Shown piece by piece: positions 7,911 through 27,686 of a stretch of DNA of 64,000 nt. Source of the stretch: Candidatus Parcubacteria bacterium (GTDB lineage: Bacteria > Patescibacteriota > Minisyncoccia > Phycocordibacterales > CAIJYI01); NCBI GenBank assembly GCA_026395595.1, contig JAPLYL010000003.1, forward strand, positions 12,136 through 76,135, written 5' to 3'. Position 1 is the stretch's first letter. Each line of letters starts with the position of its first letter. The translations under genes were made by a program, and so were the position numbers. A model generated the notes under the pieces. It did no database searches and had not been told where the DNA came from. It was given only the letters and a program-made list of their open reading frames with translations.

Positions 7911-9044
7911 TTATACGGTGATTTTATAGCCGTATTCGGTTGTTTCCACTTTCGGTTCGTGATATTCCATTCCGAAAGCATCCGCAACCGCTCGATAGGT
8001 TATCTTTCCTTGAATGATATTCACACCCTTCAAAAGCGCTTCGTTTTCCGCAACCGCACGAATCCAGCCTTTATTGGCCAACTCAAGCGCATAAAGAAGA
8101 GTAGCGTTTGTCAACGCGATTGTTGAAGTTCTTGGAAACGCGCCCGGCATATTAGCCACGCCATAGTGTACGATGCCGTCAACGATAAAGATAGGGTCTT
8201 TGTGTGTGGTCGGATGAACCGTTTCCACACAGCCACCTTGGTCAATGGCAACGTCCACGATAACCGCGCCTTGCTTCATCAGTTTTAAATCTTCGCGACG
8301 AATCAATTTTGGAGCCGCTGCGCCGGGAATGAGAACGCCACCAATCACGAGATCCGCGTCTTTGATGTGTTTCAAGATATTTTCACGATTGGAAACAAGA
8401 CTTTCCGCATTCGGCAAGATATCTCGGAGATATCGCAAACGGGGAAGTGATGAATCCAATATAACCACATTCGCGCCCATACCGAGCGCTTTTTTTGCGG
8501 CATTTAATCCGACGATGCCTCCGCCTAAAACGACGACTTTTCCGCGCGCTGTGCCAGTGACTCCGCCGAGTAAAATACCGCGTCCGCCGTAGATTTTTTC
8601 CAGATACTTCGCACCCTCATGCGTTGCCATACTGCCGGCAACTTCCGACATAGGTACGAGCAACGGAAGGGAATGATCCGGCAATTCAACGGTTTCGTAG
8701 GCGATACACGTTGCGCCAGATTTTAAATGCGCTTCAGTCAGTTCTCGGTCTGCGGCGAAATGGAAGTAGGTGAAGATTACCTGATCTTTTTTCATGCGAG
8801 GCCATTCGGGGGTAATAGGCTCCTTGACCTTGATGATCATGTCGGTGAGATCCCATACGTCTTCAACCGGCATCACATGCGCTCCAGTTTTGAGGTATTC
8901 TTCATCACTGAAACCGCTTCCGATTCCCGCACCCTTTTCTACAAAAACTTTATGACCCGCGGAAACAAGCGCTTCCACGCCGGCGGGGGTTACTCCAACC
9001 CGATTTTCATTCGTTTTAATTTCTTTCGGTACACCTATTTTCAT
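7911..9044 (-). CDS. ald: L-alanine dehydrogenase (start at internal MKIGVPKEIK; ORF track extends to 9140)
   Basis: MKIGVPKEIKTNENRVGVTPAGV N-terminus and VVVLGGGIVGLNAAKKALGMGA NAD-binding fold. Confidence 0.85.
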   Translation of the reverse strand: MKIGVPKEIKTNENRVGVTPAGVEALVSAGHKVFVEKGAGIGSGFSDEEYLKTGAHVMPVEDVWDLTDMIIKVKEPITPEWPRMKKDQVIFTYFHFAADRELTEAHLKSGATCIAYETVELPDHSLPLLVPMSEVAGSMATHEGAKYLEKIYGGRGILLGGVTGTARGKVVVLGGGIVGLNAAKKALGMGANVVILDSSLPRLRYLRDILPNAESLVSNRENILKHIKDADLVIGGVLIPGAAAPKLIRREDLKLMKQGAVIVDVAIDQGGCVETVHPTTHKDPIFIVDGIVHYGVANMPGAFPRTSTIALTNATLLYALELANKGWIRAVAENEALLKGVNIIQGKITYRAVADAFGMEYHEPKVETTEYGYKITV

Positions 9045-9144
9045 CACATCCTCCTTTTGGATAGTGAAATCAATTAAAAATTCTTTTTTCAAAAGAACGC
9101 TCTTTGACCACACGATATATCTTATTTTATAGTTTGTCAATTAT

Positions 9145-9404
9145 TCGGTCCGTGAATCCAAAAACTCTTCGTTCGTCATCCTCGCGAATGCGGGGCGACC
9201 TAATTTTGACCTAATTTTTAAGGAGCGAAGCGACTATAAAAATGGAAATACTCTTGTAGTATAATGACCGAAGCGACTATAAAAATGGAAGTACTCTTGT
9301 GGTGCTCCAGAGTATGGCTTAATGACGTGGATCCCCGTATTCGCGAGGATGACGATTTGGGGATATTTTAGTCCAAGGAAATGAGTTTTTGGATTCACAG
9401 TTCG
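9145..9404. repeat. MITE-like palindromic element: ~45-55-bp imperfect terminal inverted repeats enclosing two tandem ~40-bp direct repeats
   Basis: Left arm ggtccgtgaatccaaaaactc...cgtcatcctcgcgaatgcgggg pairs with right arm ccccgtattcgcgaggatgacg...gagtttttggattcac. Internal tandem unit is gaagcgactataaaaatggaa[a/g]tactcttgt[a/g]gt, two copies. Confidence 0.6.
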
Positions 9405-9484
9405 GTATTTTTCCACAATCGCATTATCCGATAATATGGTATTATATACTTAGCAGAGCATTATTCGTTAATTCGTTTAATTTT

Positions 9485-9547
9485 ATGGCAAAAGGACAAG
9501 ATAAAAGAAAAGAAGTGAAGAAACCGAAAAAAGGAGCGAAAAAATAA
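9485..9547 (+). CDS. candidate 20-aa highly basic peptide (MAKGQDKRKEVKKPKKGAKK)
   Basis: Short ORF immediately followed by hairpin aaaaccgcgcaagcggttttttt; no clear SD. Confidence 0.2.
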   Translation: MAKGQDKRKEVKKPKKGAKK

Positions 9548-9631
9548 TTTTGAAAAACCGCGCAAGCGGTTTTTTTATTTCTGTATCTCTTCGGAATTTG
9601 TTATTATAAAGATGAGATAAAAAATAAAAAT

Positions 9632-11249: not shown

Positions 11250-11801
11250 ATGGAAAATGCAAATATTTTTATAGAAAAGGAACGTCCGATGTTGGAAAAC
11301 AAAGAATTATTTTATGAAGTAATGGGTCAAAGAGTCCAAAGATTAAGAGGGAATTCTTATACCGAAATGGCGGGAGAGAACTCGTCGATGGCTCATTTTG
11401 GTGGGGTAGTTTGTAAAGTTCCCGAAGGGAAACTCATTAAAGATGCGGTGATTTATGTCAATGAAGACGATTTTTTTGTGAAAGGAGAAGATTTTACAGA
11501 CATTATTCCTGTCGTTCTCAGGCACGAGATGTTTGAACTGTGGACTTATGTAAAAAACGGCTGGTCACTTTCACCAGCCCCAAAGCGAATTGGAAATGAA
11601 AACAGGGTTAGTGTTGCACACGGCTTAGCTCTTCGGGAAGAATATAGATATGCTGTTGAAATTGGAAAAGCTGAGAGGTATTTGGAATATATAAAAAAAT
11701 GGTCACAAGAACACCCAAGAGAAAATATGGAAGGTTTTATTTCGGAAAATGAGAATGCCTATAAAAAGGTAATATCTCGAACAGGAGAAACAGACAAATA
11801 A
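11250..11801 (+). CDS. hypothetical protein
   Basis: 183-aa ORF flanked by R1/R2 repeats; followed by a terminator hairpin at 11865-11897. Confidence 0.45.
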   Translation: MENANIFIEKERPMLENKELFYEVMGQRVQRLRGNSYTEMAGENSSMAHFGGVVCKVPEGKLIKDAVIYVNEDDFFVKGEDFTDIIPVVLRHEMFELWTYVKNGWSLSPAPKRIGNENRVSVAHGLALREEYRYAVEIGKAERYLEYIKKWSQEHPRENMEGFISENENAYKKVISRTGETDK

Positions 11802-13041: not shown

Positions 13042-13881
13042 CTACGTTTTATCTTCATTATGTCCAGCTTCCAATTTTATTACGATTTCATTCATTGTAT
13101 AGTGTACAAATTGTTTTCCGAGTTCGGTTAACTCATATTTCTTATCGTCATCGAAAGCTGAGGTTGCATATCTGGTCCCGTTGCTCTTTGATTTACTGCG
13201 CTGGGGAGTCTGAAGTATTATGCTACCGTTGTAGCCACGTTCTTTGTGTTGGGTTATGACGTGCCCAGTACTCAAGTCGTGTATGAGCAGTTTAAACAAA
13301 TCCGCTTCCGCTGAATCTTCTCGAGCTGGGTCTCCGTGTATTTCTTGCCATATTTGCTGGCGAGTGCAACCTGGATTTTTATAGACTTCTCGAATAACCG
13401 CAAAATGTGCTTCAGAATAAATATCTATCCATGTTACAAACATGCGCACAACATCATCACTACATATTTGAGATGAGGCAGAATTTGATAAAAGGTTGCG
13501 CACTAATTTTCTTTTTTCCTCACTTTCTGCAGCCGACCAGTCTCGGAAACATTTTTTTACTATTTTTAGATATTCTGGACTTTCCAAACGTTCACGTATT
13601 TTATCGTCTGTTTGGTCTAGTCGAGTTAAAACTTCAAAAATAGTTTGTCCAATTTCCTTCATCTCATCCTCCTGTAGTTTAAGCCAGCTTCCAAATATAT
13701 TGTTAAACCTTTTTTGTTCTTGTTCTGACCAACTTGCGCCTATACCACCAATGGCTCCACCCGCAAAAGGGACAGAGCTTAAACAAGCTAATGCAAATCG
13801 AGCGACTTTTGGTCCCGCGCCACTTTTTAACGCGTCATCAAGCTGTATTCTCAGCTCGTCTTTTTTTTGATTTTCGTCCAT
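13042..13881 (-). CDS. hypothetical protein, second gene of the lexA-divergent operon
   Basis: 279-aa ORF; 2-nt gap to the upstream gene. Confidence 0.5.
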   Translation of the reverse strand: MDENQKKDELRIQLDDALKSGAGPKVARFALACLSSVPFAGGAIGGIGASWSEQEQKRFNNIFGSWLKLQEDEMKEIGQTIFEVLTRLDQTDDKIRERLESPEYLKIVKKCFRDWSAAESEEKRKLVRNLLSNSASSQICSDDVVRMFVTWIDIYSEAHFAVIREVYKNPGCTRQQIWQEIHGDPAREDSAEADLFKLLIHDLSTGHVITQHKERGYNGSIILQTPQRSKSKSNGTRYATSAFDDDKKYELTELGKQFVHYTMNEIVIKLEAGHNEDKT

Positions 13882-17425: not shown

Positions 17426-18211
17426 TTAAACCTTTGTAAAAATCACAAAAGCAGTCTTTCGGGGCTGCTTTTTTTATTGTAAAATTTTACATTTTCGTAA
17501 AAACATAATACTATAAAGTTACAACTTAATATCGTTGACCTAAACCAGCGCTTCGGTGCTGGCATGGTTGAAAATCGTTAGGCAAGAATCGGGGTCAGGT
17601 ACTCATTCTTTTTTAAATCTGTGGTGTAGTATTTTTTGATGGACGACGGACGGCGCACGGGGAATTGTGTGCTTCGCACGCTATTTTACGGGGATATCTT
17701 CCCTTACAGGGACGGTACATGTTTCGTATCTCACTTCGCCTGCGGGCTCGTTATGATATACTCAACATCTTCGATTCCCCACGGAAGACAAGCAGTTGTC
17801 TTCCTCCATCTCCACCGAAAATTTACAAACAAAAAATGCCAGTTTGCAAACTGGCATTTTTTGTGTAAATTTTGGTGGACATACTGTCGGAGGGGTGGAA
17901 CCGCCTTGAGGAGTTTGTTTTTAGGGCTTATGCGATGGTAAAAGGAGTACAAACAACGTAAAAGTACTGAAATCATCGGCTTATTTACTCACACACTGTG
18001 AATGGAACAAAGGCAGGGACGCGTCAAACAACAAAAAAACAAGAAAACGGAAACCTCGCAATTTTGTGGAATTTAATATATAATGAAGCGTATCAGGGGG
18101 GTTAAATTATCGCTGGAATTTTGTAATATTTCAGCACGATTCAGCGTAAGATGGTCGTGCTCGCTACTGATAATAACCGATATTTTTTCAAAACGGAAAC
18201 GAAGCCAAATA

Positions 18212-18382
18212 ATGAGTTTTGTTAAGAATAAGGACAGTAAGATCGAGGTCAAATTTCGAAAAATATTATGGGCACTCGGTTTTCAATACCGCAAACACCC
18301 AAAAGGCTATTTTGGAAAACCTGATGTGGTCTTAAAAAAATATAAAACTGTATTTTTTGTCGATCCTGGTTCAATCATCTAA
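18212..18382 (+). pseudogene. vsr: Vsr-like very-short-patch-repair endonuclease remnant (N-terminal ~56 aa only; catalytic His cluster missing)
   Basis: SKIEVKFRKILWALGFQYRKHPKGYFGKPDVVLKKYKTVFFVD aligns to the Vsr N-terminal half (GxPD retained). The ORF stops before the FVDGCFWH motif; the next gene starts 13 nt later. Confidence 0.5.
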
Positions 18383-18394
18383 AACTTTAATATT

Positions 18395-21103
18395 ATGAAT
18401 AAACCATGTTTGGTGCTTACTCAATCGAGAGAAGAAAGCGGGTATAACGATTTTATCGGGCGTTTTTATCATTTTCCAGAAAAATATCTTGGTCAATTCA
18501 AGGAACTTCCTGCGGAATTTGTTTATTACGAGCCGACAAAAAGCGGGGATGGAGTATATTTCGGATACGGAAGGATAGAAAATCAGCCGACAGCAGACAA
18601 ACGAGAGGACGGACATTATTTTGTAGAGATTTCAGATTATAAGCCTTTTGCAAAACCAGTTCCGTTTAAAAACGAGACCGGGATTATACGAGAAGCGGAC
18701 TCGCCTCATTATAATGCGCAAAATGCGGTACGGAAACTGCCAACACTAACTCTGGATGAAATTTGTCTCGATGGGAAAGTTCGTCTTAATTTCAAGGCGG
18801 ATGCTCACCTCATCAAGGTACTCGGAGAACAACTCATTGCTTCGGAGAAGGTCGGGATACTCGAACTTATTAAAAACGCATACGATGCGGGAGCATCATA
18901 TTGCAGGGTTAGAATCGAAAATATTCCTGGTATGTTGCCCGCGCCGGAAAGCGAATGCTTGTTTCCTGAACTCTCCGGACCAGTAATCATAATTGATGAC
19001 GATGGTTATGGAATGACTCGTTCGGTCATTGAAGACGGCTGGCTGCGACCAGCATCCACTATCAAAACAACGGTGAAAGAAACGATGCGAAAAGAAAGAG
19101 AGAAGGCCGCCGCCTCGGGAAGACTCGGTTCTTATGATAAGCTGATCGACGAAATTAAAAAGGAACGCGGGGGAAGAATACCGTTGGGCGAAAAAGGCGT
19201 TGGCCGGTTTGCTTCGCACCGTCTGGGAAAACGTCTTTTGTTAACGACAAAAACCCGTGATCTTGACTACGAGTATGTGCTCGACATAGATTGGGATCAG
19301 TTTGACAGCGATGATGGTGCGGTTAAAAATCTTGACGCTGTCGGCATAAACTTATACCGCCAAAAGCCATCAAGGAACTATGGAAAGAAAGGGTCCGGAA
19401 CTCAGCTTGTGATACACGGTGGGCGTAAAGGTTTTTCTTGGGAACCGGAAACGGTTGGTGATTTACAAAGATCCATCTCCAGTTTGAATTCCCCTCAGGT
19501 TGTACAAAAACCGGATATGGAATTGCCGTTTAAGGCGTTTTTGGAATGTCCGCAAATAGGATACACAAAGAATGATGCCGAAACACTTACTTTTCCCCCC
19601 ATCTTTTCATTTGACGGACAAATCGATGAAAACGGAATTTTGAAATATACGCTAAAATTTACCCCGCCCAAGTCGGTACCGATGTCGCCCGAAACGACGG
19701 AAGACAAAAACTTTGATCTGAGGAAGGCCAAACCGGAACACTGGAAGAAAACGGAAACGGAAGAAGGTTTTCGAAAACCTGAATCCGGCCCTTTCCGGTT
19801 GCACGTGGATGCATGGTACAGAACCGGTCCGTGGATTGTGGGACCCGAGGTGGATTCGTTTACAAAACGACTTGACGACTTTGGCGGAGTATCGATTTTC
19901 AGAGACGGAATCAATGTTTTCCCCGCGGAATGGGGTGCGGAAACGGATTGGCTTGATTTGTCGACAAGACACATTAAACGGGGACGTCATCTTTCCTACT
20001 ACAACATAATCGGTAATCTGGAAATCAACCAAGAGAATAATATTAATCTCATTGATAAGACAGACCGCGAAGGGTTAATCAAAAACAAAGCGTATAACGA
20101 TTTGGTGCTCCTCACACGGGCGGCCATACTCAATATCCTCGAAATATCTTTTGAAGGAAAGCGCGACCAATATAGCAAATTAATCGGTGAGGTGGTACGA
20201 GACCCCGCTGCATTAAAAAATTATGCAAAACAAGGATCGTCTCTCATTTCATCGATTAAAGAAAAGTACCCGTTCGAACAGGATCCCTATGATATTCTCG
20301 ATTCTGTTGGTAAACCCGCAGAGCGTGGAGAAAATCTCGTTAATCTTTCAACGTCGCTTAAAAACCTTCAGAAGAGTCTTGATCTTATGAAAGAGTCTCA
20401 AGAAATGCTCACCGAACAAGCGGGTTATGGATTGGCTGTCGCCGTTTCAGTACACGAGATTGCGAAGATCGCCGCAAATTTCTATACGGGGGTGTCTCAA
20501 CTTTTGAAGTCCGATCGACAGGATGCCGACAAACTTCGAAATCTCAAAGACGCATCGGCCTCCTTGCAGTCGGAACTTAAACGGCTCAGTCCTCTTCGGG
20601 CTGTTCGTACCGAGGCGCGTACCGAATTCCCAATAACGAAACCGATCAATTTTGCCGTTGAGGTCTTTCGATCCAGATTCGAAAAAATGGGGGTGGAAGT
20701 AAAAGTTAATACCAAAGAACAATTTTCCGTATATGGCAGATACGGCGCATTTGCTCAAGTCTTTTCGAATTTATTTGATAACAGTTGCTATTGGTTAGAG
20801 TCGATGCCGCGCAAAAACAGAAAAATTGAAGTCCTCATAGATGCAAAGCATAGAACGATAACAGTCGCCGATTCGGGTCCGGGTATCGCTGAGGTGATTT
20901 TGCCGTACATTTTCGAGCAGGGCTACAGTTTGAAAATTCCACCAAGCGGTCTCGGCTTATATATCTGCAAACATTATATGCATAGTATGAGGGGAGATAT
21001 TTACCTGACGTTGGACAGAGAAAGAATAAACGAACTTTCTGGGGCGCAATTTACTCTGGATTTGGGAAAGGTCGAATCAGAACGTCCGATAGCAAAGAAA
21101 TAA
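18395..21103 (+). CDS. 902-aa multidomain protein: N-terminal unknown domain, GHKL/MORC-like ATPase, C-terminal histidine-kinase core (DHp-like plus HATPase_c)
   Basis: N-box ELIKNAYDAGAS, G1 IIIDDDGYGM and G2 GEKGVGRFASHRLG. C-terminal candidate H-box VSVHEIAKIA followed by ITVADSGPGIAEV...GLGLYICKHYMHSMRGDIYL. Confidence 0.7.
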   Translation: MNKPCLVLTQSREESGYNDFIGRFYHFPEKYLGQFKELPAEFVYYEPTKSGDGVYFGYGRIENQPTADKREDGHYFVEISDYKPFAKPVPFKNETGIIREADSPHYNAQNAVRKLPTLTLDEICLDGKVRLNFKADAHLIKVLGEQLIASEKVGILELIKNAYDAGASYCRVRIENIPGMLPAPESECLFPELSGPVIIIDDDGYGMTRSVIEDGWLRPASTIKTTVKETMRKEREKAAASGRLGSYDKLIDEIKKERGGRIPLGEKGVGRFASHRLGKRLLLTTKTRDLDYEYVLDIDWDQFDSDDGAVKNLDAVGINLYRQKPSRNYGKKGSGTQLVIHGGRKGFSWEPETVGDLQRSISSLNSPQVVQKPDMELPFKAFLECPQIGYTKNDAETLTFPPIFSFDGQIDENGILKYTLKFTPPKSVPMSPETTEDKNFDLRKAKPEHWKKTETEEGFRKPESGPFRLHVDAWYRTGPWIVGPEVDSFTKRLDDFGGVSIFRDGINVFPAEWGAETDWLDLSTRHIKRGRHLSYYNIIGNLEINQENNINLIDKTDREGLIKNKAYNDLVLLTRAAILNILEISFEGKRDQYSKLIGEVVRDPAALKNYAKQGSSLISSIKEKYPFEQDPYDILDSVGKPAERGENLVNLSTSLKNLQKSLDLMKESQEMLTEQAGYGLAVAVSVHEIAKIAANFYTGVSQLLKSDRQDADKLRNLKDASASLQSELKRLSPLRAVRTEARTEFPITKPINFAVEVFRSRFEKMGVEVKVNTKEQFSVYGRYGAFAQVFSNLFDNSCYWLESMPRKNRKIEVLIDAKHRTITVADSGPGIAEVILPYIFEQGYSLKIPPSGLGLYICKHYMHSMRGDIYLTLDRERINELSGAQFTLDLGKVESERPIAKK

Positions 21104-21107
21104 AATC

Positions 21108-22541
21108 ATGCGCTATTCCGTTTGCATTATCGATGATGAAATACCTGTTGCCGGAGTTGAAGGTTTTCGGGATACCGAATTGCTTAATTCGTCAAATCTC
21201 GGGCAGCTACTGCGACAAAATGAGCATCCTTGGACAGATGAAGTGGTAAAGCACTTCGTTCAAACGTTGTTGGAGGAAAAGGAGGATGACGGCACTTCGA
21301 AATGGGATGTATATGCTTTTACAAATCCCGCGCTTTATATCAACCATTTGGAAAACGGAACGTTTCGCCCCGATCTCTTGGTTTTTGATTGGGATTATTC
21401 CACCGGAGGTGTTGATTCCGAAGCACGTCTGAAGGAAATCCTCGAAAGAACCTTTTGTCTCGTGTTTGTCTTTTCAAAAGCCGACAGAGAAGACGAAATA
21501 AACGCCATTTTGAGCACACCGGAGTTTTTGGAATATCAAGGTCGGGTGAGTTATCTCAAAAAAGGCGATCCGGCTGCGGACAATGTCAATACTCTTTTGG
21601 AAAAAGCGAATGAAATGGATAAGAACAATTTTTCTTTTAAGTTTGCTGGCAGGTTACGGCGCGAGTCTTTGAAAATCATGGATAGAACTTTGTCCGATCT
21701 TGGTAAAGCGACAGTCAGTGATATTAAAAATTATCTTGCCTTGGAGGACGGAGAAGAAAAGCATGGGCTTATTGACTTTATTGCTGATCGCTTTCGGTCA
21801 GGTCTTGTTGAAACGGATTTTCCTGAATTGACTGAGGCGTACACCACACCCGCAACAACGGGTACAGGAGGGATTGATAATAACCTCGTAAAAAAGATAT
21901 GGGCATATCGACTTTATCGACCCCTTGATGGAACAGTCTCTTTGGCAAATGAACTTGTGCGTCGCGGAGATATTATCAAATACGAAGACAACCATTACCT
22001 TGTTGTATCAGCGGCTTGTGATTTAAAAAGATTTTGGAAAAAAAATTTCGGAACAATAAATTTGCTCCCGCTTCATAGACTTCATAACTCGAATACGGAG
22101 TTAAAAGATTTGCTGAGTTTTTGTTTGGACCCCGAAAATGTCTCAAAAAAATTAAAGACCGGAAAATTTCAAAATCTTACTGGAAGGTTGGGTGATCTTC
22201 CAGACGGTCCGTTCATTTTGCCGTTCTTGAAAGAGAACGACAACTACGAATGTTTCGTCGTACTTCCAAAAGAAATGTCTGGGCATAAAATTCCTGTTCA
22301 TCGAGACGTTTCTGCATTAGAATTAGATAAAAGAAAGGAAGCTTCTCTAAAATATGAGTGGTTGGGAGCGGAAAAGTTGTGTTCGGTATCTGAGCCATTC
22401 CTATCTGCCATAATTCAGCATACGTTTGGGACTATCGGCGGGTATGGAACCCCAGACTACCCTAAGGAGATGAAAAAAATCTTTGAGGAAATTTTAGATG
22501 AGTTCACCGCTGCTATTCCAGCGGAAAGAATACAAACATGA
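21108..22541 (+). CDS. 477-aa protein with degenerate receiver-like N-terminus and uncharacterised C-terminal domain
   Basis: SVCIIDDE (beta1 acidic pair), RPDLLVFDWDY (candidate phospho-Asp), CLVFVFSKAD (Thr/Ser position), VSYLKKG (Lys). Start 4 nt after the upstream stop; ATGA overlap with dcm. Confidence 0.45.
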   Translation: MRYSVCIIDDEIPVAGVEGFRDTELLNSSNLGQLLRQNEHPWTDEVVKHFVQTLLEEKEDDGTSKWDVYAFTNPALYINHLENGTFRPDLLVFDWDYSTGGVDSEARLKEILERTFCLVFVFSKADREDEINAILSTPEFLEYQGRVSYLKKGDPAADNVNTLLEKANEMDKNNFSFKFAGRLRRESLKIMDRTLSDLGKATVSDIKNYLALEDGEEKHGLIDFIADRFRSGLVETDFPELTEAYTTPATTGTGGIDNNLVKKIWAYRLYRPLDGTVSLANELVRRGDIIKYEDNHYLVVSAACDLKRFWKKNFGTINLLPLHRLHNSNTELKDLLSFCLDPENVSKKLKTGKFQNLTGRLGDLPDGPFILPFLKENDNYECFVVLPKEMSGHKIPVHRDVSALELDKRKEASLKYEWLGAEKLCSVSEPFLSAIIQHTFGTIGGYGTPDYPKEMKKIFEEILDEFTAAIPAERIQT

Positions 22542-23578
22542 AAAAATTCAACGCAATAGATTTGTTTTCCGGATGCGGCGGTTTAACACAGGGATTAAAA
22601 ACCGCCGGATTTGAGGTGCTTGCAGCTTTTGATAATGATGACGACTCAATAGCGGCATATCGGTTAAATCACCCGGAAGCCGTTATTTTCGAGGGCGACA
22701 TCCGCAAAGTACAAACGGCGGACGTTAAGAAATTATTGAAGGGAGAGCCCTTGCATCTTTTAGCTGGTTGCCCGCCTTGCCAGGGTTTTTCCTCTATGCG
22801 ACGGCGCAATAATAAAAGAACCAAAAACGATTCTCGAAACAACCTGATTTTGGAATATCTGCGATTTGTGAAAGAACTCGAACCGCTAACGATCATGATG
22901 GAAAATGTTCCCGGTCTGAAAAATTATCATTTGTTTCAGTACACAATGCGCGAATTGCAAAAACTCGGATATAATCCGAAATATCAAGCTGTTAAGATTC
23001 AAGAATACGGAATTCCGCAGCGGCGCAAGCGTCTCGTTGTCGTCGGTTCGTTGCTTGGCGATATTAATATTGCTGGCCCGACAATGGAAAAAATGACGGT
23101 TCGAGATATGATCGGTCACATAGAATCGGTTGCTGAAACGAAAGACCCGATTCATAAAATCGTCGCGTCGCATACACCGGAAGTGATGAAGCGCATAAAA
23201 GCCACTCCCAAAAATGGTGGGAGTCGTTCGGATCTTCCCAAAAAATACGAACTCGAGTGCCACAAAGAAGAAGGGGTGGGGTTTAATGACGTTTACGGTC
23301 GCTTGCGGTGGGACGATTATTCAACGACAATGACTGGCGGTTGTTTAAATCCCTCCAAGGGTCGTTTCTTGCACCCGGAAGAAAATAGAGCGATCACGGC
23401 AAGAGAAGCGGCACTTTTGCAAACTTTTCCTAAGGACTACAAATTTCCGGACCGTATTTCAAAAACTTCAATCTCGTTGTTGATAGGCAACGCCCTTCCG
23501 CCGAAATTCAGCCACATTCAATCAACCAATATTTTGGAACACCTAAAAGAATTTGAGATCAAAAATAAAACGCACTAA
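22538..23578 (+). CDS. dcm: DNA (cytosine-5)-methyltransferase
   Basis: Motif I FSGCGG, motif IV GCPPCQGFS, motif VI ENVPGL, motif VIII QRRKR, motif X GNALPP. Confidence 0.9.
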   Translation: MKKFNAIDLFSGCGGLTQGLKTAGFEVLAAFDNDDDSIAAYRLNHPEAVIFEGDIRKVQTADVKKLLKGEPLHLLAGCPPCQGFSSMRRRNNKRTKNDSRNNLILEYLRFVKELEPLTIMMENVPGLKNYHLFQYTMRELQKLGYNPKYQAVKIQEYGIPQRRKRLVVVGSLLGDINIAGPTMEKMTVRDMIGHIESVAETKDPIHKIVASHTPEVMKRIKATPKNGGSRSDLPKKYELECHKEEGVGFNDVYGRLRWDDYSTTMTGGCLNPSKGRFLHPEENRAITAREAALLQTFPKDYKFPDRISKTSISLLIGNALPPKFSHIQSTNILEHLKEFEIKNKTH

Positions 23579-23593
23579 TGGACCAAATTGTGT

Positions 23594-23790
23594 AAAAAAC
23601 CACACAAACCGCACACTGCAAATGGTTCCAGACGATACGAAAAAACGTGAAAATGGCACAAACGGCACACCCAACGCATTCATTATATCCAGCTTTTACG
23701 TCGAAATGACACAAACGACACACGAAACCGCACAAACCTCACACAGAAAATGGCTTATTATTGTGAAAATGCCACAAATGCCACACTCAC
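23594..23790. repeat. iteron-like array of five ~21-bp units, each a duplicated half-site xCACAAAy-xCACAC with covarying x
   Basis: Units at about 23596, 23650, 23703, 23724 and 23765 (GGCACAAACGGCACAC, GACACAAACGACACAC, GCCACAAATGCCACAC and so on). Start-to-start spacing is 54, 53, 21 and 41 bp, roughly whole helical turns. Confidence 0.55.
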
Positions 23791-23939
23791 GCTCGTTGTT
23801 TTACACCCAAGGCGACCACAATCGACTGTGTGGGGAGTTTTGGCGCGGGTTTAAGGTTTCCTCGGTTTTGAACAAAAAGACAGACCGCGAGAATTTTTGA
23901 AGGAAAACTGGATTTATCAGCGAACGTGGAGTAAAATGA

Positions 23940-24140
23940 AACTACAACTAAATAAGTATTGACCTAACCCACCGGGTCTGCCGATGGTATGGTCAGAGAG
24001 TCGATCAAGCATAAAGAACCCGTCAGGGGGTTTGCTTGATCGCCATATCGGGAAACCGGTATGAAGGGCTTCGGCTCTTACCCGTGGCGGGCTTTTTGTA
24101 CCCGAAACCGCGGTTATAAATAAGACGATCAAGCAAATTT
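23940..24140 (+). promoter_or_regulatory. structured 5' leader (candidate cis-regulatory RNA) upstream of 24141 gene
   Basis: About 190-nt ORF-free leader with nested hairpins (gatcaagca...tgcttgatc) and a short cccgtggcggg-ctttttg terminator-like stem before the start codon. Confidence 0.3.
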
Positions 24141-24569
24141 ATGGAAGAAGTAAAAAAGGAACCTCCGCGGAAAAGTCATTTACTCCGCGTATTGTTCATA
24201 TCTATCGGAATTATTATTTTTGTTCCGTTTATCGTTGGTTTAAGTACGGGCGCGGGTAAGGGCAAAACTCTAAACCAGCCGCAGATCGGAGAAACATATA
24301 CCCTTAACTATAACGACGATGTATCCAATTGCGACGGAAAAGTTGTCGTGCCAATCGATGAAAAAAGTCAGGAAGCTTACGGCAAAGCGGCGGTGGCGAA
24401 AGATAATGAAGAAATTGCCATGATGGTACTTGAGGGTAACGCCTTCTTCGTACCGAACTGCACAACCGTGAAAGTGATAGATCGAAACATGTACATACGA
24501 AAAATCAGAATTATGGATGGAGAACAAACATTAAAAACAGGGTGGGTTCCGAATGAATATTTGAAGTAA
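24141..24569 (+). CDS. small secreted/membrane-anchored protein, hypothetical
   Basis: N-terminal TM/signal segment LLRVLFISIGIIIFVPFIVGLS. Confidence 0.45.
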   Translation: MEEVKKEPPRKSHLLRVLFISIGIIIFVPFIVGLSTGAGKGKTLNQPQIGETYTLNYNDDVSNCDGKVVVPIDEKSQEAYGKAAVAKDNEEIAMMVLEGNAFFVPNCTTVKVIDRNMYIRKIRIMDGEQTLKTGWVPNEYLK

Positions 24570-24638
24570 GAGAAGAACGATAAAAGCTCGCCGATAAAAA
24601 ATATTGGCGGTCTTTTGTTTTTAGGGTAATATGAGCGC

Positions 24639-25328
24639 ATGAAAGGTGACACAAACAAACTCTCGCGCGGGGAGAAACTTTTTCAGCGTATATCTCAAGG
24701 AGAAAAGTTTACCCATCTCGTAGAAAACATACGGAAAAACTATAAAATCTCGACTGAAGGATTTTCATTTCAGGAAGATATTACGGACTGGTATGCACAG
24801 CATAGCTCGGGGGTCGGGTCCGGAGACTACGAAGAATTCAAGGATGAAATAAACAAACTGCTCATGAAAAATGCACTGCCAGTCAATCAGTGGTGGTGGA
24901 CGAGGGCAACGACGCATATTTTGTCCGGAGACAAGGTTTCTTTTCTACCGCCGTTGCACTCGTTTCAGCATCCGTTTGTTGAAATGATGGATAAGCATGT
25001 CGGAAGAGATGGAAGTTACACTGATATTCGTTTATATGAGGGAGCGGTCCAAAGGGATATGGATGATTTCATGAGCGAAAATTGGGGACGGATGAAACCA
25101 TCGTATCGTGTGGGTACCATCCAAAAAATTCGCAAAGAAAGTCCCGTTGATATCGAAATCAATAAGGAGGCGGATTTCCTTTTGAGGCACTCAAAAAGTG
25201 ATCTTGGAATAAAGAACACGACAAAAGAAATCGCCGTGAGCGGACATCTTACGAAAAAATATGGCAAAAAAATAACGAGCGATTCTGTAAAAATGCGGGT
25301 TCAACGATTGCGTCGAAAGAAGAGGTAA
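24639..25328 (+). CDS. hypothetical protein (basic C-terminal tail QRLRRKKR)
   Basis: 229-aa ORF, no motif. Confidence 0.45.
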   Translation: MKGDTNKLSRGEKLFQRISQGEKFTHLVENIRKNYKISTEGFSFQEDITDWYAQHSSGVGSGDYEEFKDEINKLLMKNALPVNQWWWTRATTHILSGDKVSFLPPLHSFQHPFVEMMDKHVGRDGSYTDIRLYEGAVQRDMDDFMSENWGRMKPSYRVGTIQKIRKESPVDIEINKEADFLLRHSKSDLGIKNTTKEIAVSGHLTKKYGKKITSDSVKMRVQRLRRKKR

Positions 25329-25470
25329 CAGATATTGCACCGCAATACATGTCACTTACCGGAAAAAGAAAAAATGCGACCATAATCTTGTGGCCGCATT
25401 TTGCGTCCACGAGGTGACGTCACAAAGCTCAAGCCGCTCCGGTGAGTCACCCTCCGGAGCGGCTTAGTGC

Positions 25471-25644
25471 ATGAATGACACAAGGCTCACAATTGAAAAT
25501 TGCCGAAAACTTTTAGGTGATGAAGATTTAATCGACGAGAGGGTCGTGGAAATTCGCGATGCCTTGTATTCCATTGCGGAAAGTGTTTTTGATAAACACA
25601 AAAACACTGGATATACCCCGGATATAGGGTATAATTCTCAATAA
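25471..25644 (+). CDS. candidate 57-aa small protein immediately upstream of the recombinase (possible accessory or directionality factor)
   Basis: ORF MNDTRLTIENCRKLLGDEDLIDERVVEIRDALYSIAESVF..., below the ORF-track length cutoff; ends 11 nt before the recombinase start. Confidence 0.25.
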   Translation: MNDTRLTIENCRKLLGDEDLIDERVVEIRDALYSIAESVFDKHKNTGYTPDIGYNSQ

Positions 25645-25655
25645 TCAAAAAGTTT

Positions 25656-27257
25656 ATGTTAGATGGTGATAAAAAAGAAATCGCGCTTATCTACTGTCGA
25701 GTTTCTTCTGAACGGCAAAAAAATGATGGTCATGGTCTTGATGGGCAGGAACATCGTTGCCGGATCCATGCGGAAGATCAAGGGTATGAAGTTGAAAAAA
25801 TTTTCAGAGATAGTTTCAGTGGGGCGGGAGATTTTATGCAACGTCCCGCGATGGCAGAAATGATAAACTACATGGATAAGAACGCACATAAAAAGTATGT
25901 GGTGATTTTTGACGACCTTTCTCGTTTTGCCAGAGATACAGTATTTCATCTCAAACTGGCGTCGGCGTTTAAGGTGCGCGGGGCGCGACGCGAATGTCTC
26001 AATTTTAACTTTGATGATTCTCCGGAAGGGGAATTTGCTGAAACGATCGTAGCCGCTTCAAACGCTCTTGACCGGCAGAAAAACCGTCGTCAGGTTATCC
26101 AGAAGCAAAAAGCGCGTCTAGAAAAAGGATACTGGCCATTCTTCCCGCCACCGGGATATAAGCATATAAAAGATCCGGTTCACGGAAAACTTTTGACCCC
26201 GGAGGAACCCAAGGCAAGTATCATAAGGGAGGCGTTTGAAGGCTTTGCCAATGGACGTTTTTTGACACAAACAGACGTTATGAAGTTTCTCAGGGAAAAA
26301 GATTTTTGTGACGGAAAACCAACGCATCTTTTTTATGTAAAAAGATTGCTGGTTCGAGCCGTTTATTCAGGATACATAGAGTATCCCGACTGGGGCGTTT
26401 CGAGAATGCTCGGACATCATAAACCAATTGTTGATCCGGAAGTATGGGGACAAGTTCAGAAAAAACTCTCGGAAAAAGCCCCGATACGGACGAGAAAGGA
26501 CTATAGCTGTATCTTATCTCTTCGCGGATATGCTTGTTGTGCTTATTGCGGTGAACCAATGACAGGAAGCGAGAGCACGGGACGGCACGGAAATAAATTC
26601 GCTTACTATCGTTGTCGAAACAGAAATTGCTCGCATCGAACCAAAAGCATAAAGAAAAAAGACCTTGAGGATGAATTCTGCCGGATTCTTGGTAATACAC
26701 AACCGAAAAAGAATATCATCACATTAGCAAGGGCGATCATCGAAGATGTTTATTCGAAAAGACAAAATTCCTCTGGTGAGCTGTTCAGTCGAACGGAAAA
26801 ACAGATCGCAAAGATTGACGAAGAAATGAAGGCTCTCGGCTTACTGGCAGGGAGGTCGAAAAAAGAAAGCGCCATCACTTTGTACGAAGAGCAGATCGAC
26901 GATTTAAGCAAAAAGAAAAAGGAACTGGAGAAAAAGAGAGACTCTACGGCTTCCGGTCCTGTGAGTGTTGGAACCGCTTTTGACGAAGTGATGAAATATC
27001 TGAATGATCCAGTAAATATGTGGGTTAATGGTGATCCAAACGACAAAAGACGAGTGCAAGCACTCGTCTTTGAGGAAAACTTCGTATACGATCGGAAAAA
27101 CGGTGTTGGAACCGCCAAAGTGTCAGTCCTGTACGAGTTTTTTGAGCGAACTCGCGACCGCGAGTTGCAGGATGTGGAGATGGGGGGAATCGAACCCCCG
27201 TGCAAAAAGGAACTCTCGTTACTTTGTACAAACGTATTCTGTTTATTTTTTGTTTGA
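25656..27257 (+). CDS. large serine recombinase (resolvase/invertase catalytic domain, recombinase domain, zinc ribbon, coiled coil)
   Basis: N-terminus ALIYCRVSSERQKNDGHGLDGQ holds the catalytic Ser motif. Zn ribbon CCAYCGEPMTGS...YYRCRNRNC. C-terminal codons run into the tRNA-like repeat. Confidence 0.9.
   Translation: MLDGDKKEIALIYCRVSSERQKNDGHGLDGQEHRCRIHAEDQGYEVEKIFRDSFSGAGDFMQRPAMAEMINYMDKNAHKKYVVIFDDLSRFARDTVFHLKLASAFKVRGARRECLNFNFDDSPEGEFAETIVAASNALDRQKNRRQVIQKQKARLEKGYWPFFPPPGYKHIKDPVHGKLLTPEEPKASIIREAFEGFANGRFLTQTDVMKFLREKDFCDGKPTHLFYVKRLLVRAVYSGYIEYPDWGVSRMLGHHKPIVDPEVWGQVQKKLSEKAPIRTRKDYSCILSLRGYACCAYCGEPMTGSESTGRHGNKFAYYRCRNRNCSHRTKSIKKKDLEDEFCRILGNTQPKKNIITLARAIIEDVYSKRQNSSGELFSRTEKQIAKIDEEMKALGLLAGRSKKESAITLYEEQIDDLSKKKKELEKKRDSTASGPVSVGTAFDEVMKYLNDPVNMWVNGDPNDKRRVQALVFEENFVYDRKNGVGTAKVSVLYEFFERTRDRELQDVEMGGIEPPCKKELSLLCTNVFCLFFV
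27172..27200 (-). other. tRNA 3'-fragment-like sequence (T-arm GGGGGTTCGATTCCCCC plus acceptor 3' strand), no 5' half
   Basis: Minus strand reads gggggttcgattccccccatctccaca. No complementary 5' acceptor strand within 100 nt. Equals the right inverted repeat of the 17770-27200 segment. Confidence 0.55.
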
Positions 27258-27686
27258 GCTTGAAAAGTTTGAAACAGACAAAATCTTTACAAGCCGAGCT
27301 TCCTTTATTTTGAAAATACGCCAAAACGCTCATATTTTCTATCCTGAAGTTTATTACACTGATATTTTCCTAACAGGATTCAGAATATATCAATGCCGAA
27401 TTTACGCTAAAGCGAATTCCGGAGCAAAGGAGAAATATGGTGAAACCATACCCTTTACTTTTGAAGATAAGTTTGCACTTATTCTTTTTTCCTGCACACG
27501 ATAACGGACGAGCAGGAGTAGCCGGTTTGAGTAAACGAGAGAGCGGCTTATTGTCTAGGCCGATCATCCCCATATATTTGTCTTTCAAAGGACTCCTCTA
27601 TTATACTCCAATGCCTTGGTACTTGTCAAATATCATTTTGCGTGCTACTCTCATCTCGGATAAGTTATTTGAAGAGGGAAAAAAGA

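What the first reader, a model, noticed from the sequence alone, without database searches (positions are those of the whole stretch)
23594..23790. Iteron-like array: five ~21-bp units, each a duplicated half-site whose variable base covaries within the unit
Seen in sequence: units GGCACAAAC-GGCACAC, GACACAAAC-GACACAC, GCCACAAAT-GCCACAC and two more. Start-to-start spacings of 54, 53, 21 and 41 bp approximate integral helical turns. The units sit in different reading frames of the overlapping ORF 23553-23900, which argues against coding.

Inference: binding-site array for a dimeric DNA-binding protein. It could be a replication-origin iteron, a partition centromere or a regulator array belonging to the mobile segment.
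Basis: partly seen in the sequence, partly recalled or inferred. Interest (0 to 1): 0.55.

Follow-up and report, generated by a model that had tools for sequence, protein, structure and literature searches.

The report
Phased twin-repeat array in CPR island
The five repeats are real, non-coding and lie on one face of the DNA helix, and arrays built the same way occur at the same spot in related mobile islands of Parcubacteria; this points to a protein-binding or DNA-bending boundary element of unknown partner, with no sign of a replication origin.

Summary
Observation confirmed. Five units (23598-23786, + strand) are each a tandem copy of a 9-mer AA-N4-ACA. The motif occurs nowhere else in 64 kb apart from one relaxed match (5 exact hits vs 0.39 expected). 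Spacings are 54/53/21/42 bp; the best-fitting period is 10.6 bp (P=0.007 at 10.5).

New: arrays of the same architecture, with different N4, lie at the same position in three related island lineages (L172, L174, L171). The N4 are duplicated within units (41/52 matches vs about 20-23 expected, P<=1e-5). All four arrays have 10.3-10.7 bp A-tract/ACA periodicity. L174 uses 10-mers, which rules out coding there.

The array sits inside a ~9.3-kb island integrated in the tmRNA gene by a large serine recombinase. It lies between a Vsr-ATPase-Dcm cargo cassette and the promoter of a LOOT small RNA.

ORF 23553-23900 has no homologue among 1.84 billion proteins. I found no RNA structure, Rep/Par gene, DnaA-box cluster or AT-rich unwinding region.

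Best reading (about 0.4): a DNA-level, helically phased binding or bending array that marks the cargo/core boundary and controls or insulates the LOOT-recombinase module. Rivals: Rho-type terminator RNA, slippage-prone neutral repeats, origin or centromere. The binding partner is unknown.

The parts
23598..23616 (+). Unit 1: AACCACACA|AACCGCACA+C (AAACC subtype)
23652..23670 (+). Unit 2: AATGGCACA|AACGGCACA+C (GAAAATG subtype)
23705..23723 (+). Unit 3: AATGACACA|AACGACACA+C (GAAAATG subtype)
23726..23744 (+). Unit 4: AACCGCACA|AACCTCACA+C (AAACC subtype), abutting unit 3
23768..23786 (+). Unit 5: AATGCCACA|AATGCCACA+C (the two halves are identical)
23620..23628 (+). Degenerate single half-site AAATGGTTC after unit 1. 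A second one, AAATGGCTT, lies at 23749-23757 after unit 4.
   Evidence: read; family D2
23816..23833 (+). Inverted copy of the motif: CCACA-N8-TGTGG. The right arm CTGTGTGGGG is 90% complementary to CCTCACACAG of unit 4.
   Evidence: I10; read
23855..23908 (+). Block GGTTTCCTCGG..ACAAAAAG..GACCG..GAAGGAAAAC. By eye it is shared with the p229-type islands L005, L006, L008 and L002, just upstream of their LOOT or p229 promoter.
   Evidence: aligned by eye; MAFFT placed the window sequence differently
23909..23937 (+). LOOT promoter: TGGATT-N17-TAAAAT. The pattern TGGnnn-N17-TAnAAT is conserved in W, L006, L008 and L036.
23961..24098 (+). LOOT small RNA (Rfam RF03000, 73.4 bits; model ends at 24079) plus conserved terminator ACCCGTGGCGGGCTTTTT
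18212..23578 (+). Cargo cassette: truncated Vsr, HATPase 902 aa, 477-aa protein, Dcm. It moves as a block, about 80% identical, in other genomes. The Dcm stop lies 16-19 nt before unit 1.
25471..27257 (+). Small acidic helical ORF (p57 family) plus large serine recombinase. The 3' end of the recombinase ORF runs into the 3' end of the tmRNA gene (27172-27571, minus strand); this is the right end of the island.
17874..17906 (+). Probable left end of the island: a displaced native tmRNA 3' end (reverse complement, TGGTGGACATAC...) next to a two-way terminator at 17828-17865.
   Evidence: by eye; the same TTTGGTGGACATAG motif occurs in L032

Best explanation
The array is a DNA-level, helically phased repeat element that belongs to a family of tmRNA-integrating large-serine-recombinase islands of Parcubacteria.

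Anatomy (shown):
- Each unit is two adjacent copies of a helical-turn-sized 9- or 10-mer, AA(A)-N4-ACA.
- The constant A-tract and ACA boxes of all units fall on one face of the helix.
- The N4 between the boxes differs from unit to unit but is nearly the same in the two copies of a unit.
- The array always lies between the last cargo gene and the promoter of the LOOT small RNA that opens the conserved core (LOOT, small proteins, recombinase).

Function (inferred):
- The phased boxes bend the DNA and/or carry a row of head-to-tail bound protein molecules, either a small island protein or a host nucleoid protein.
- This nucleoprotein or curved structure sets the boundary between cargo and core. 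It would insulate the LOOT-recombinase module from read-through out of the cargo, and/or set the activity of the LOOT promoter.
- The N4 are uncontacted spacer. They are kept alike within a unit by slippage between the two adjacent copies, while selection keeps exactly two copies.
For: - Real and non-random.
- Phasing at 10.5-10.6 bp in the window.
- The same 10.3-10.7 bp periodicity of AAA and ACA occurs in three further, non-alignable arrays (L172, L174, L171), each with P<=0.003.
- Same architecture and position in islands whose recombinases are 58-60% identical to this one.
- Within-unit duplication of N4: 41 of 52 positions vs about 20-23 expected, P<=1e-5. N4 identity between different units is only 1.3 of 4.
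- In L172 the four 32-nt units share their 3' flank (TTTGnGACCT) while the N4 changed in both halves together. Whole units were therefore copied, and the two halves then evolved in concert.
- Not coding: plus the 10-mer period in L174.
- Not a structured RNA: z = +0.5 and +0.24 on the two strands.
- No pairing with LOOT beyond chance.
- In the cases seen, the array is present where the upstream cargo gene points the same way (W, L172, L171, L174). It is absent in L169 (upstream gene on the other strand) and L032 (no co-oriented gene call immediately upstream).
- Against a close relative (L171 vs L176-179), the array changed less (2 of 55) than the spacer next to it (about 9 of 135).
Against: - No binding protein is identified. 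The only non-recombinase protein shared by all array-bearing islands is the small acidic helical p57 family, which does not look like a DNA binder (low-confidence model).
- p229 gave no fold or family match.
- The array is missing from some related islands (L169, L032, L036) and from 23 other LOOT loci, so it is dispensable.
- The half-site period differs between islands (9 vs 10 bp). That is awkward for one conserved binder.
- The A/C-rich strand is always the sense strand, which also fits an RNA-level role.
- A-tract phasing of this strength is found in a few other places in the window.
- The SNP counts are too small to show constraint.
Confidence: 0.4

Rival explanations
1. RNA-level terminator or insulator. 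Transcribed as the tail of the cargo operon, the C-rich, G-poor, unstructured RNA acts as a Rho-loading (rut) site, or as a binding platform for another RNA-binding protein. This would stop cargo transcription before the LOOT promoter.
For: - C 28% vs G 14% on the sense strand; the C-G excess is in the top 0.05% of windows.
- The other arrays have the same bias.
- The RNA is unstructured.
- No intrinsic terminator was called between the cargo stop codon and LOOT in W, L172 or L174.
- The array starts 16-27 nt after the stop codon in W and L172, and about at the stop codon in L171.
- It is always on the sense strand. In the cases seen it is present only where the upstream gene is co-oriented.
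Against: - The conserved boxes are AAA and ACA, not the YC dimers that Rho's primary site prefers (established knowledge). Only about 6 of 10 half-sites in the window contain CC or TC.
- A period of exactly 10.3-10.7 in four independent arrays is the DNA helical repeat and has no clear meaning for RNA.
- Precise twin 9/10-mers are not needed for a rut site.
- Whether this organism has Rho is unknown; no rho gene was seen among the window ORFs I tested.
Confidence: 0.2
2. Non-functional, slippage-prone repeat DNA. This would be a fast-evolving minisatellite-like filler at a recombination-prone cargo/core junction. Turn-sized tandem duplications arise easily in A-rich DNA there and then decay.
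For: - The array lies in about 345 nt that replace about 40 nt in the otherwise similar Dcm-to-LOOT-like junction of L163.
- Arrays cannot be aligned between islands, vary from 4 to 7 units, and are absent in some relatives.
- The only other copy of this exact array (L001) is 100% identical, so there is no population evidence for constraint.
Against: - The same architecture, strand, position and 10.3-10.7 bp phasing recur in four lineages separated by about 40% recombinase divergence.
- The constant boxes are kept while the N4 vary (though units were defined by these boxes).
- Each 9/10-mer is present exactly twice in all 13 scored units, whereas free slippage should give 1, 3 or more copies.
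- L171's array is not in clear twin form.
Confidence: 0.15
3. One reading: iterons of a replication origin, or a partition centromere, of the excised island.
For: - Phased direct repeats of about 20 bp that are internally bipartite resemble iterons.
- They also resemble ParR-type centromeres such as the 20-bp repeats of pSK41 parC (from memory; not tested here).
- Several island proteins have no assigned function (p229, p142, the 477-aa protein).
Against: - No Rep, helicase/primase, ParA/ParM or ParB/ParR-type hit in Pfam, PHROGs or NCBIfam.
- No DnaA-box cluster and no AT-rich unwinding stretch beside the array.
- Units are not identical to each other, whereas iterons and centromere repeats of one element normally are.
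- Array-bearing L172 has no p229-type gene, so no candidate initiator is shared.
- No similar DNA in 72,556 plasmids or 50,697 phages.
Confidence: 0.1
4. Recombination or cargo-capture sites. Each twin 9/10-mer would be the footprint of a staggered cut (like a target-site duplication), or a docking site used when cargo cassettes are swapped at this boundary.
For: - The array sits exactly where the cargo differs between islands: Vsr/Dcm, two Dcm plus HNH, Dcm plus NgoFVII-like enzyme, or a protein kinase.
- Tandem copies of 9-10 bp of arbitrary sequence are what staggered cuts with fill-in produce (established knowledge of transposition).
- The LOOT 5' region is itself duplicated or truncated in places: window 17537-17671, and L163 downstream of dcm.
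Against: - No transposase or second recombinase is present in any of the islands.
- Serine recombinases make 2-nt staggers and leave no duplication.
- The regular 32-nt tandem units with shared flanks in L172 show that units were copied whole rather than made by separate insertions.
- No matching 9-mer was seen at the far side of the cargo.
Confidence: 0.07
5. Protein-coding. Candidates are small ORFs starting at the three ATG-bearing units (MAQTAH.., MTQTTH.., MPQMPH..), a frameshifted gene with X-Q-T-X-H repeats, or a Cys-rich CxxC peptide on the minus strand (23559-23735).
For: - Three of four spacings are multiples of 3.
- In one phase every unit reads X-Q-T/M-X-H.
- An ATGA stop/start overlap lies at 23705-23708.
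- On the minus strand every unit reads C-x-V/I-C.
Against: - Period 3 is not significant (P=0.27).
- Both strands need a frameshift between units 2 and 3.
- Unit 1 has no start codon in its phase.
- ORF 23553-23900 has 0 homologues among 1.84 billion proteins, no family hit and no gene call.
- The homologous arrays use 10-mers in L174.
- The minus-strand ORF was not searched for homologues.
Confidence: 0.02

Closest known systems
Iterons of theta-replicating plasmids and phage origins (e.g. F, P1, pPS10, lambda ori)
   Same: Clustered direct repeats of about 19-22 bp, in phase with the DNA helix and often intrinsically bent. Copy number varies between related elements. (From established knowledge.)
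   Different: - Iterons of one replicon share one sequence; here each unit has its own N4.
- No Rep gene, DnaA boxes or AT-rich unwinding element.
- Spacing is irregular at 2-5 helical turns.
ParR-type centromeres and operator arrays of ribbon-helix-helix proteins (R1 parC 11-bp repeats, pSK41 parC 20-bp repeats, omega heptads of pSM19035)
   Same: Rows of turn-sized direct half-sites bound head-to-tail, with the DNA wrapped on one face. These arrays double as operators upstream of an operon. (From memory; not tested here.)
   Different: - No ParM/ParA partner.
- No ribbon-helix-helix protein was recognised. The p57 family is acidic and lacks the basic N-terminal strand.
- Repeats differ from each other in the N4.
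Phased A-tract curved DNA upstream of bacterial promoters
   Same: A3-A6 tracts recur every 10.3-10.7 bp over 85-270 bp, 25-125 bp upstream of a sigma-70-type promoter.
   Different: - An ACA box is conserved as well.
- The twin-copy structure is not a feature of known curved upstream elements.
- Curvature itself was not computed or measured.
Rho-utilisation (rut) sites
   Same: C greater than G, unstructured, 80-200 nt, directly after the last gene of an operon.
   Different: The conserved boxes are not YC dimers, and the structure is a strict helical-repeat period with precise twin repeats.
tmRNA (ssrA)-specific genomic islands with serine recombinases, as in Dehalococcoides (PMC3146451)
   Same: This is the context, not the array. 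The island is integrated at the single tmRNA gene by a serine recombinase, carries adaptive cargo, and shows signs of repeated or tandem insertion.
   Different: - Different phylum.
- These islands carry a LOOT small RNA and the repeat array. I did not check whether comparable arrays occur in the Dehalococcoides islands.

Membership tests
Plasmid/phage replication-origin iterons | Adjacent gene for a Rep initiator that binds the repeats | tested here: not met
   No Rep, primase or helicase family in any island ORF (Pfam; PHROGs; NCBIfam). p229 has no fold or sequence match and is absent from array-bearing L172.
Plasmid/phage replication-origin iterons | AT-rich unwinding element and DnaA boxes beside the repeats | tested here: not met
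   Within 23000-24500 no box has fewer than 2 mismatches to TTATCCACA. AT content of 40-nt windows across the array is 0.47-0.62, with no AT-rich stretch flanking the repeats on the LOOT side; the 0.72 stretch at 23520-23599 is the Dcm 3' end and the A-run before unit 1.
Plasmid/phage replication-origin iterons | Repeats of one element share one recognition sequence | tested here: not met
   The N4 differ between units (1.3 of 4 identity). Only AA, ACA and flanking A's are constant.
Partition centromere (type I/II/III) | Cognate NTPase (ParA/ParM/TubZ) and centromere-binding protein encoded next to the repeats | tested here: not met
   No such family in the island or in the related islands' gene lists.
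Helically phased protein-binding or curved-DNA array (generic) | Repeat positions and A-tracts recur at about 10.5 bp | tested here: met
   Window: R=0.90, P=0.007, best period 10.6. Periodograms: (four arrays, peaks at 10.3-10.7).
Helically phased protein-binding or curved-DNA array (generic) | Physical binding of a protein, or anomalous gel mobility | not testable with these tools
   Needs EMSA, footprinting or DAP-seq, and permutation gel assays.
LOOT RNA (Rfam RF03000) | Match to the covariance model | tested here: not met
   LOOT is at 23961-24079 (73.4 bits). The array lies outside the model and upstream of the LOOT promoter. 23 other LOOT loci have no such array.
Rho-dependent terminator (rut site) | C-rich, G-poor, unstructured RNA downstream of a stop codon | tested here: met
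   C 28.4%, G 14.2%; folding z = +0.5.
Rho-dependent terminator (rut site) | Rho present in the organism, and Rho-dependent 3' ends | not testable with these tools
   Only a 64-kb window is available, with no transcript data.
Protein-coding gene | Conserved product, intact frame | tested here: not met
   0 hits among 1.84 billion representatives. The frame breaks between units 2 and 3. The homologous array in L174 is built of 10-mers.
Attachment site of the large serine recombinase | Located at an island end; similar to the sequence at the recombinase/tmRNA junction | tested here: not met
   The array is 3.4 kb from the tmRNA junction and about 5.7 kb from the probable left end. Local alignment to the junction region is not above shuffles.

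The most novel reading that the evidence does not exclude
The twin 9/10-mers are not passive spacers. The machinery would need the two copies of each unit to be identical, for example through slipped-strand pairing, or as footprints or docking sites of a staggered-cut enzyme. The array would then be the site at which these CPR islands capture and exchange cargo cassettes next to the LOOT RNA gene. That would be a new kind of cassette platform.
Probability: 0.07. Interest if true: 0.8.

Novelty: new variant of a known kind. Interest (0 to 1): 0.5.

Why it matters
Mobile elements of the candidate phyla radiation are almost unstudied. This work delineates a large family of small islands: about 1,490 recombinase relatives at E<=1e-60. 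In each of the five closest lineages I fetched, the island sits in the tmRNA gene and carries cargo (restriction-modification genes in two of them and in this window), and most carry a LOOT small RNA of unknown role.

The repeat array is a conserved cis-element at the junction between swappable cargo and the conserved core. If it is a binding or bending element, it offers a handle on two questions: how such minimal islands keep their recombination module under control, and what LOOT does.

The rule 'any tetranucleotide, but twice' is unusual. It is easy to test by mutating one half of a unit.

Tried and rejected
1. Remnant of an older recombinase 3' end or attachment site upstream of LOOT. By eye I saw KVSSV.., GACCGCGAG and GTGGAG. 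The DNA alignment is not above shuffles and BLASTP gives E>4. Dropped.
2. Structured RNA on either strand. z = +0.5 and +0.24, and no Rfam hit.
3. Pairing between the array and LOOT or the neighbouring RNA. Not above shuffles in four islands.
4. The array as part of the Vsr-ATPase-Dcm cassette. The cassette occurs elsewhere at about 80% identity with other flanks and no array.
5. The array as a general companion of LOOT. Among the 26 LOOT copies examined at that point, only the window has repeats above shuffles.
6. p229 as the binder. The AlphaFold model is poor (pLDDT 64). No PDB fold match, PDB sequence match, Pfam hit or NCBIfam hit.
7. p57 as a ribbon-helix-helix binder. The model is low confidence. 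The family alignment shows an acidic helical protein starting at MISIxxCK.
8. A sixth unit at 25479-25491 as an operator at the start of p57. It is the only other CACAA-N4-CACA in the window. However, the same bases encode conserved T-K/R-L-T-I in L169, so it is weak evidence. The TGACACAA at the p229 start is likewise explained by the conserved G-D codons.
9. Units as extra promoters. GTGAAAATG resembles the LOOT -10 region, but no -35 element lies at the right distance (by eye; one search found none on the + strand).
10. CRP-like palindromes TGTGA-N6-CACA. Present in only 3 units; not pursued.
11. Same array elsewhere. A viral-contig scan gave single chance hits only. Phage and plasmid BLAST gave nothing. 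Viral scans with p142 and p229 gave nothing. The metagenome scan with the p229 profile gave one short contig without an array.
12. DnaA boxes and an AT-rich unwinding element. Absent.

Full report

Yes. CACAAAYNNCACAC occurs five times exactly in 64 kb, at 23603, 23657, 23710, 23731 and 23773. All five are on the + strand. Allowing up to one mismatch, 0.39 matches are expected by chance, and no shuffle reaches the observed count.

The repeat finder splits the units into two subtypes. Three are GAAAATG-x-CACAAAYG-x-CACAC. Two are AAACC-x-CACAAACC-x-CACAC..AAATGG. A cleaner description came out later: every unit is a tandem copy of a 9-mer AA-N4-ACA followed by C. The stretch is the most C+A-rich 197 nt in the window, at 42% A, 28% C, 14% G and 16% T.

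**Phasing and covariation**

The five unit positions fit a 10.5-bp period (R=0.90, P=0.007). The best period anywhere between 2.5 and 30 bp is 10.6. Period 3 is not significant (P=0.27). AAA, AA, CAC and CACA periodograms all peak at 10.6 bp, with 0 of 300 shuffles as strong. A-tract phasing of this strength is not unique in the window, where it ranks about 9th of 6380 windows.

Covariation of the single base X is weak within the window alone: 3 of 5 units, P about 0.1. The three spacer bases before each CAC match at 11 of 15 positions (P=0.017).

**Coding?**

Units 1-2 and 3-5 lie in different phases of ORF 23553-23900. Relative to the motif, every unit can be read as X-Q-T/M-X-H on the + strand or as C-x-V/I-C on the minus strand. 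That made coding a serious rival for a while. It fails on several counts:
- ORF 23553-23900 has no homologue among 1.84 billion representative proteins.
- It has no Pfam or PHROG hit.
- It was not called as a gene in the identical public contig L001.
- Either strand needs a frameshift between units 2 and 3.
- The homologous array in L174 is made of 10-mers.

**Where is it?**

The window comes from a Candidatus Parcubacteria genome bin (source name of P0001). A tmRNA gene lies at 27172-27571 on the minus strand. The ORF of a large serine recombinase (25656-27257) runs into its 3' end.

At 17874-17906 there is what looks like the displaced native tmRNA 3' end. It sits next to a two-way terminator, and a relative (L032) shows the same motif. 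The island therefore spans about 17.9-27.2 kb.

From left to right the island holds:
- a four-gene cargo cassette: truncated Vsr, a 902-aa HATPase, a 477-aa protein and Dcm;
- the array;
- a sigma-70-type promoter, TGGATT-N17-TAAAAT;
- a LOOT small RNA (RF03000, 73.4 bits, 23961-24079) with its terminator;
- a 142-aa protein with an N-terminal hydrophobic segment (p142; no family assigned);
- a 229-aa protein with no family (p229);
- a conserved non-coding element;
- a 57-aa ORF (p57);
- the recombinase.

The cargo cassette travels as a block, about 80% identical, in other genomes with other flanks. In one of those (L163) the sequence downstream of Dcm looks by eye like a LOOT 5' end, although Rfam did not call a LOOT there; the LOOT it did call in L163 lies at 11327-11451. 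Relative to that junction, the window has about 345 extra nucleotides, which contain the array.

**Relatives**

Islands found through p229 (45-55% identical) have LOOT and only weak CA-rich repeats (L006, L008) or none (L036). Of 26 LOOT loci from CPR genomes, only the window has repeats above shuffles.

The window's recombinase is of a different type from those of the p229 islands, at about 25% identity. So I searched with the recombinase itself and fetched the closest relatives, which are 58-60% identical. They share one layout: cargo, LOOT (in three of the four lineages), a roughly 200-aa protein (in three of the four), a p57-like ORF, recombinase, tmRNA, then SmpB and FtsH.

Three of those four lineages carry an array of the same architecture at the same place:
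- **L172** has four tandem 32-nt units:
  - AAAA-CCGT-ACAAA-CCGT-ACAC-TTTGTGACCTT
  - AAAA-CTGC-ACAAG-CTGC-ACAC-TTTGGGACCTC
  - AAAA-TGCA-ACAAA-TGCC-ACAC-TTTTCACCTAG
  - AAA-CTTT-ACAAA-TCTT-ACAG-ATTTGGGGCC
- **L174** has at least five units made of 10-mers, for example AAACCTAACA|AAACCTAACA and AAACCGCACA|AAAGCGCACA.
- **L171** has five half-sites in a row.

Over 13 units from three islands, 41 of 52 N4 positions are identical within a unit. Shuffled pairings give about 20-23 (P<=1e-5). N4 of different units share only 1.3 of 4 positions. All four arrays have their strongest AAA and ACA periodicity at 10.3-10.7 bp.

It is therefore passed.

**What the anatomy says**

Four points follow.
- (i) The constant parts are A-tracts and ACA boxes on one face of the helix. 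The N4 are free between units.
- (ii) In L172 the units share their 3' flank, so whole units were copied. The N4 then changed in both halves together. This means either concerted evolution of two adjacent copies, or selection for identical halves.
- (iii) Each 9/10-mer is present exactly twice in the 13 units scored; L171's array is not in clear twin form.
- (iv) The A/C-rich strand is always the sense strand of the flanking genes. Where an array is present, the upstream cargo gene is co-oriented. L169 and L032, which lack such a gene immediately upstream, have no array. L036 is an exception in the other direction.

The helical period in four non-alignable arrays argues for a DNA-level role. 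My best reading is a bent and/or protein-coated stretch that marks the cargo/core boundary and controls or shields the LOOT-recombinase module. In that reading the N4 are spacer, homogenised by slippage between the two copies. I put this at about 0.4.

**Rivals**

- An RNA-level Rho-type terminator fits the composition, the lack of structure, the position after the stop codon, and the absence of a called intrinsic terminator. It does not fit the conserved boxes or the exact helical period (0.2).
- Neutral slippage-prone filler fits the turnover and the indel status. It does not fit the recurrence of architecture, phase and copy number (0.15).
- Origin or centromere lacks every partner feature tested (0.1).
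- A recombination or cargo-capture role is attractive because of the position and the duplication-like twins, but no enzyme for it is present (0.07).
- Coding is at 0.02.

**Who binds?**

This is unresolved.
- p229 gave a poor model and no match, and it is absent from L172.
- The p57 family is the only non-recombinase protein common to all array-bearing islands. It is acidic and helical, and it is also present in array-less islands.
- A sixth motif at the p57 start is explained by conserved codons.
- A host nucleoid protein remains possible.

**Novelty**

I know of no described element with this rule: helically phased twin 9/10-mers whose variable tetranucleotide is repeated within a unit but not between units. 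The literature tool returned nothing on LOOT function or on CPR islands of this type. The closest system context is the tmRNA-specific serine-recombinase islands of Dehalococcoides (PMC3146451).

I file it as a new variant of the known kind 'phased direct-repeat binding or bending array'. It is not a member of the iteron or centromere families, whose defining features were tested and not met.

Noticed in passing
window 23961-24098 (+): LOOT small RNA (RF03000, 73.4 bits) with its own promoter (TGGATT-N17-TAAAAT, then ACAACTAAATAAG) and a conserved terminator. The same pattern matched 24 contig stretches from CPR genome assemblies (Saccharibacteria, Paceibacterota and others; one labelled Oscillochloridaceae); at least one contig carries two copies (L027).
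   Followed up: partly
window 23999-24011 and 24123-24135: The 5' strand of the long LOOT hairpin (AGTCGATCAAGCA) is repeated just before the start codon of the next gene (AGACGATCAAGCAAATTTATG). The 3' strand of the hairpin could therefore pair with that translation start region. L036 and L174 show the same pattern (..CGATCAAGCAAAAATATG; ..CCAATCAAGCAAAAATATG). This may mean LOOT acts on the downstream gene in cis.
   Followed up: no
window 25329-25470 (+); L006 3445-3590; L005 5090-5235; L002 3055-3200; L008 2022-2170; L036 1549-1700: A non-coding element of about 140 nt between p229 and the small ORF/recombinase is conserved at nucleotide level in all p229-type islands. It has an invariant GGTGACGTCAC palindrome and a 3' hairpin with GTCACC in the loop. 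12 of 26 predicted pairs show compensatory changes. There is no Rfam match. It is a candidate new structured RNA or operator region.
   Followed up: partly
window 17537-17671 (+) and 17770-17815 (+): A second, degenerate LOOT copy (28 bits, E=0.004) with an intact promoter and first hairpin lies just outside the probable left end of the island. It is followed by a tmRNA-3'-end-like piece in inverted orientation (TTCGATTCCCC..hairpin..TCCATCTCCACC). This suggests earlier insertions or rearrangements at this tmRNA locus.
   Followed up: partly
window 25656-27257 (+) and 27172-27571 (-): The recombinase reading frame continues about 85 nt into the 3' end of the tmRNA gene (..VEMGGIEPP..). The island therefore supplies the working tmRNA 3' end. 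The same arrangement is seen in L005, L006, L169, L171, L172 and L174.
   Followed up: partly
window 18212-23578 (+); L157-L168: The four-gene block Vsr / roughly 905-aa double-HATPase protein / roughly 480-aa unknown / Dcm is conserved at about 80% protein identity across distant genomes. It looks like a mobile restriction- or defence-type module. Vsr is truncated to 56 aa in the window.
   Followed up: partly
L163-L168, about 8080-9610: Directly after the Dcm cassette there is LOOT-like 5' sequence, seen by eye as duplicated (not called by Rfam). A diversity-generating retroelement follows (reverse transcriptase plus bAvd). An Rfam-called LOOT lies further on in L163, at 11327-11451.
   Followed up: no
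window 24620-24641; L005 4385-4415; L002 2355-2371; L036 860-876: p229-family genes have a TATAAT-like box 6-7 nt before the ATG and no Shine-Dalgarno sequence. This suggests leaderless mRNAs.
   Followed up: no
L172 4530-4800 (+): Where the other islands have LOOT, L172 has a LOOT-type promoter and 5' motif (GATATAAT..ACAATCGAATAAAAAG). It is followed by a different sequence of about 250 nt that ends in a strong terminator. This is possibly another small RNA replacing LOOT.
   Followed up: no
window 13042-13881 (-): A 279-aa ORF with a weak Abi_alpha (abortive infection) match (below the Pfam cut-off), next to two ORFs without family. This may be another defence locus upstream of the island.
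   Followed up: no
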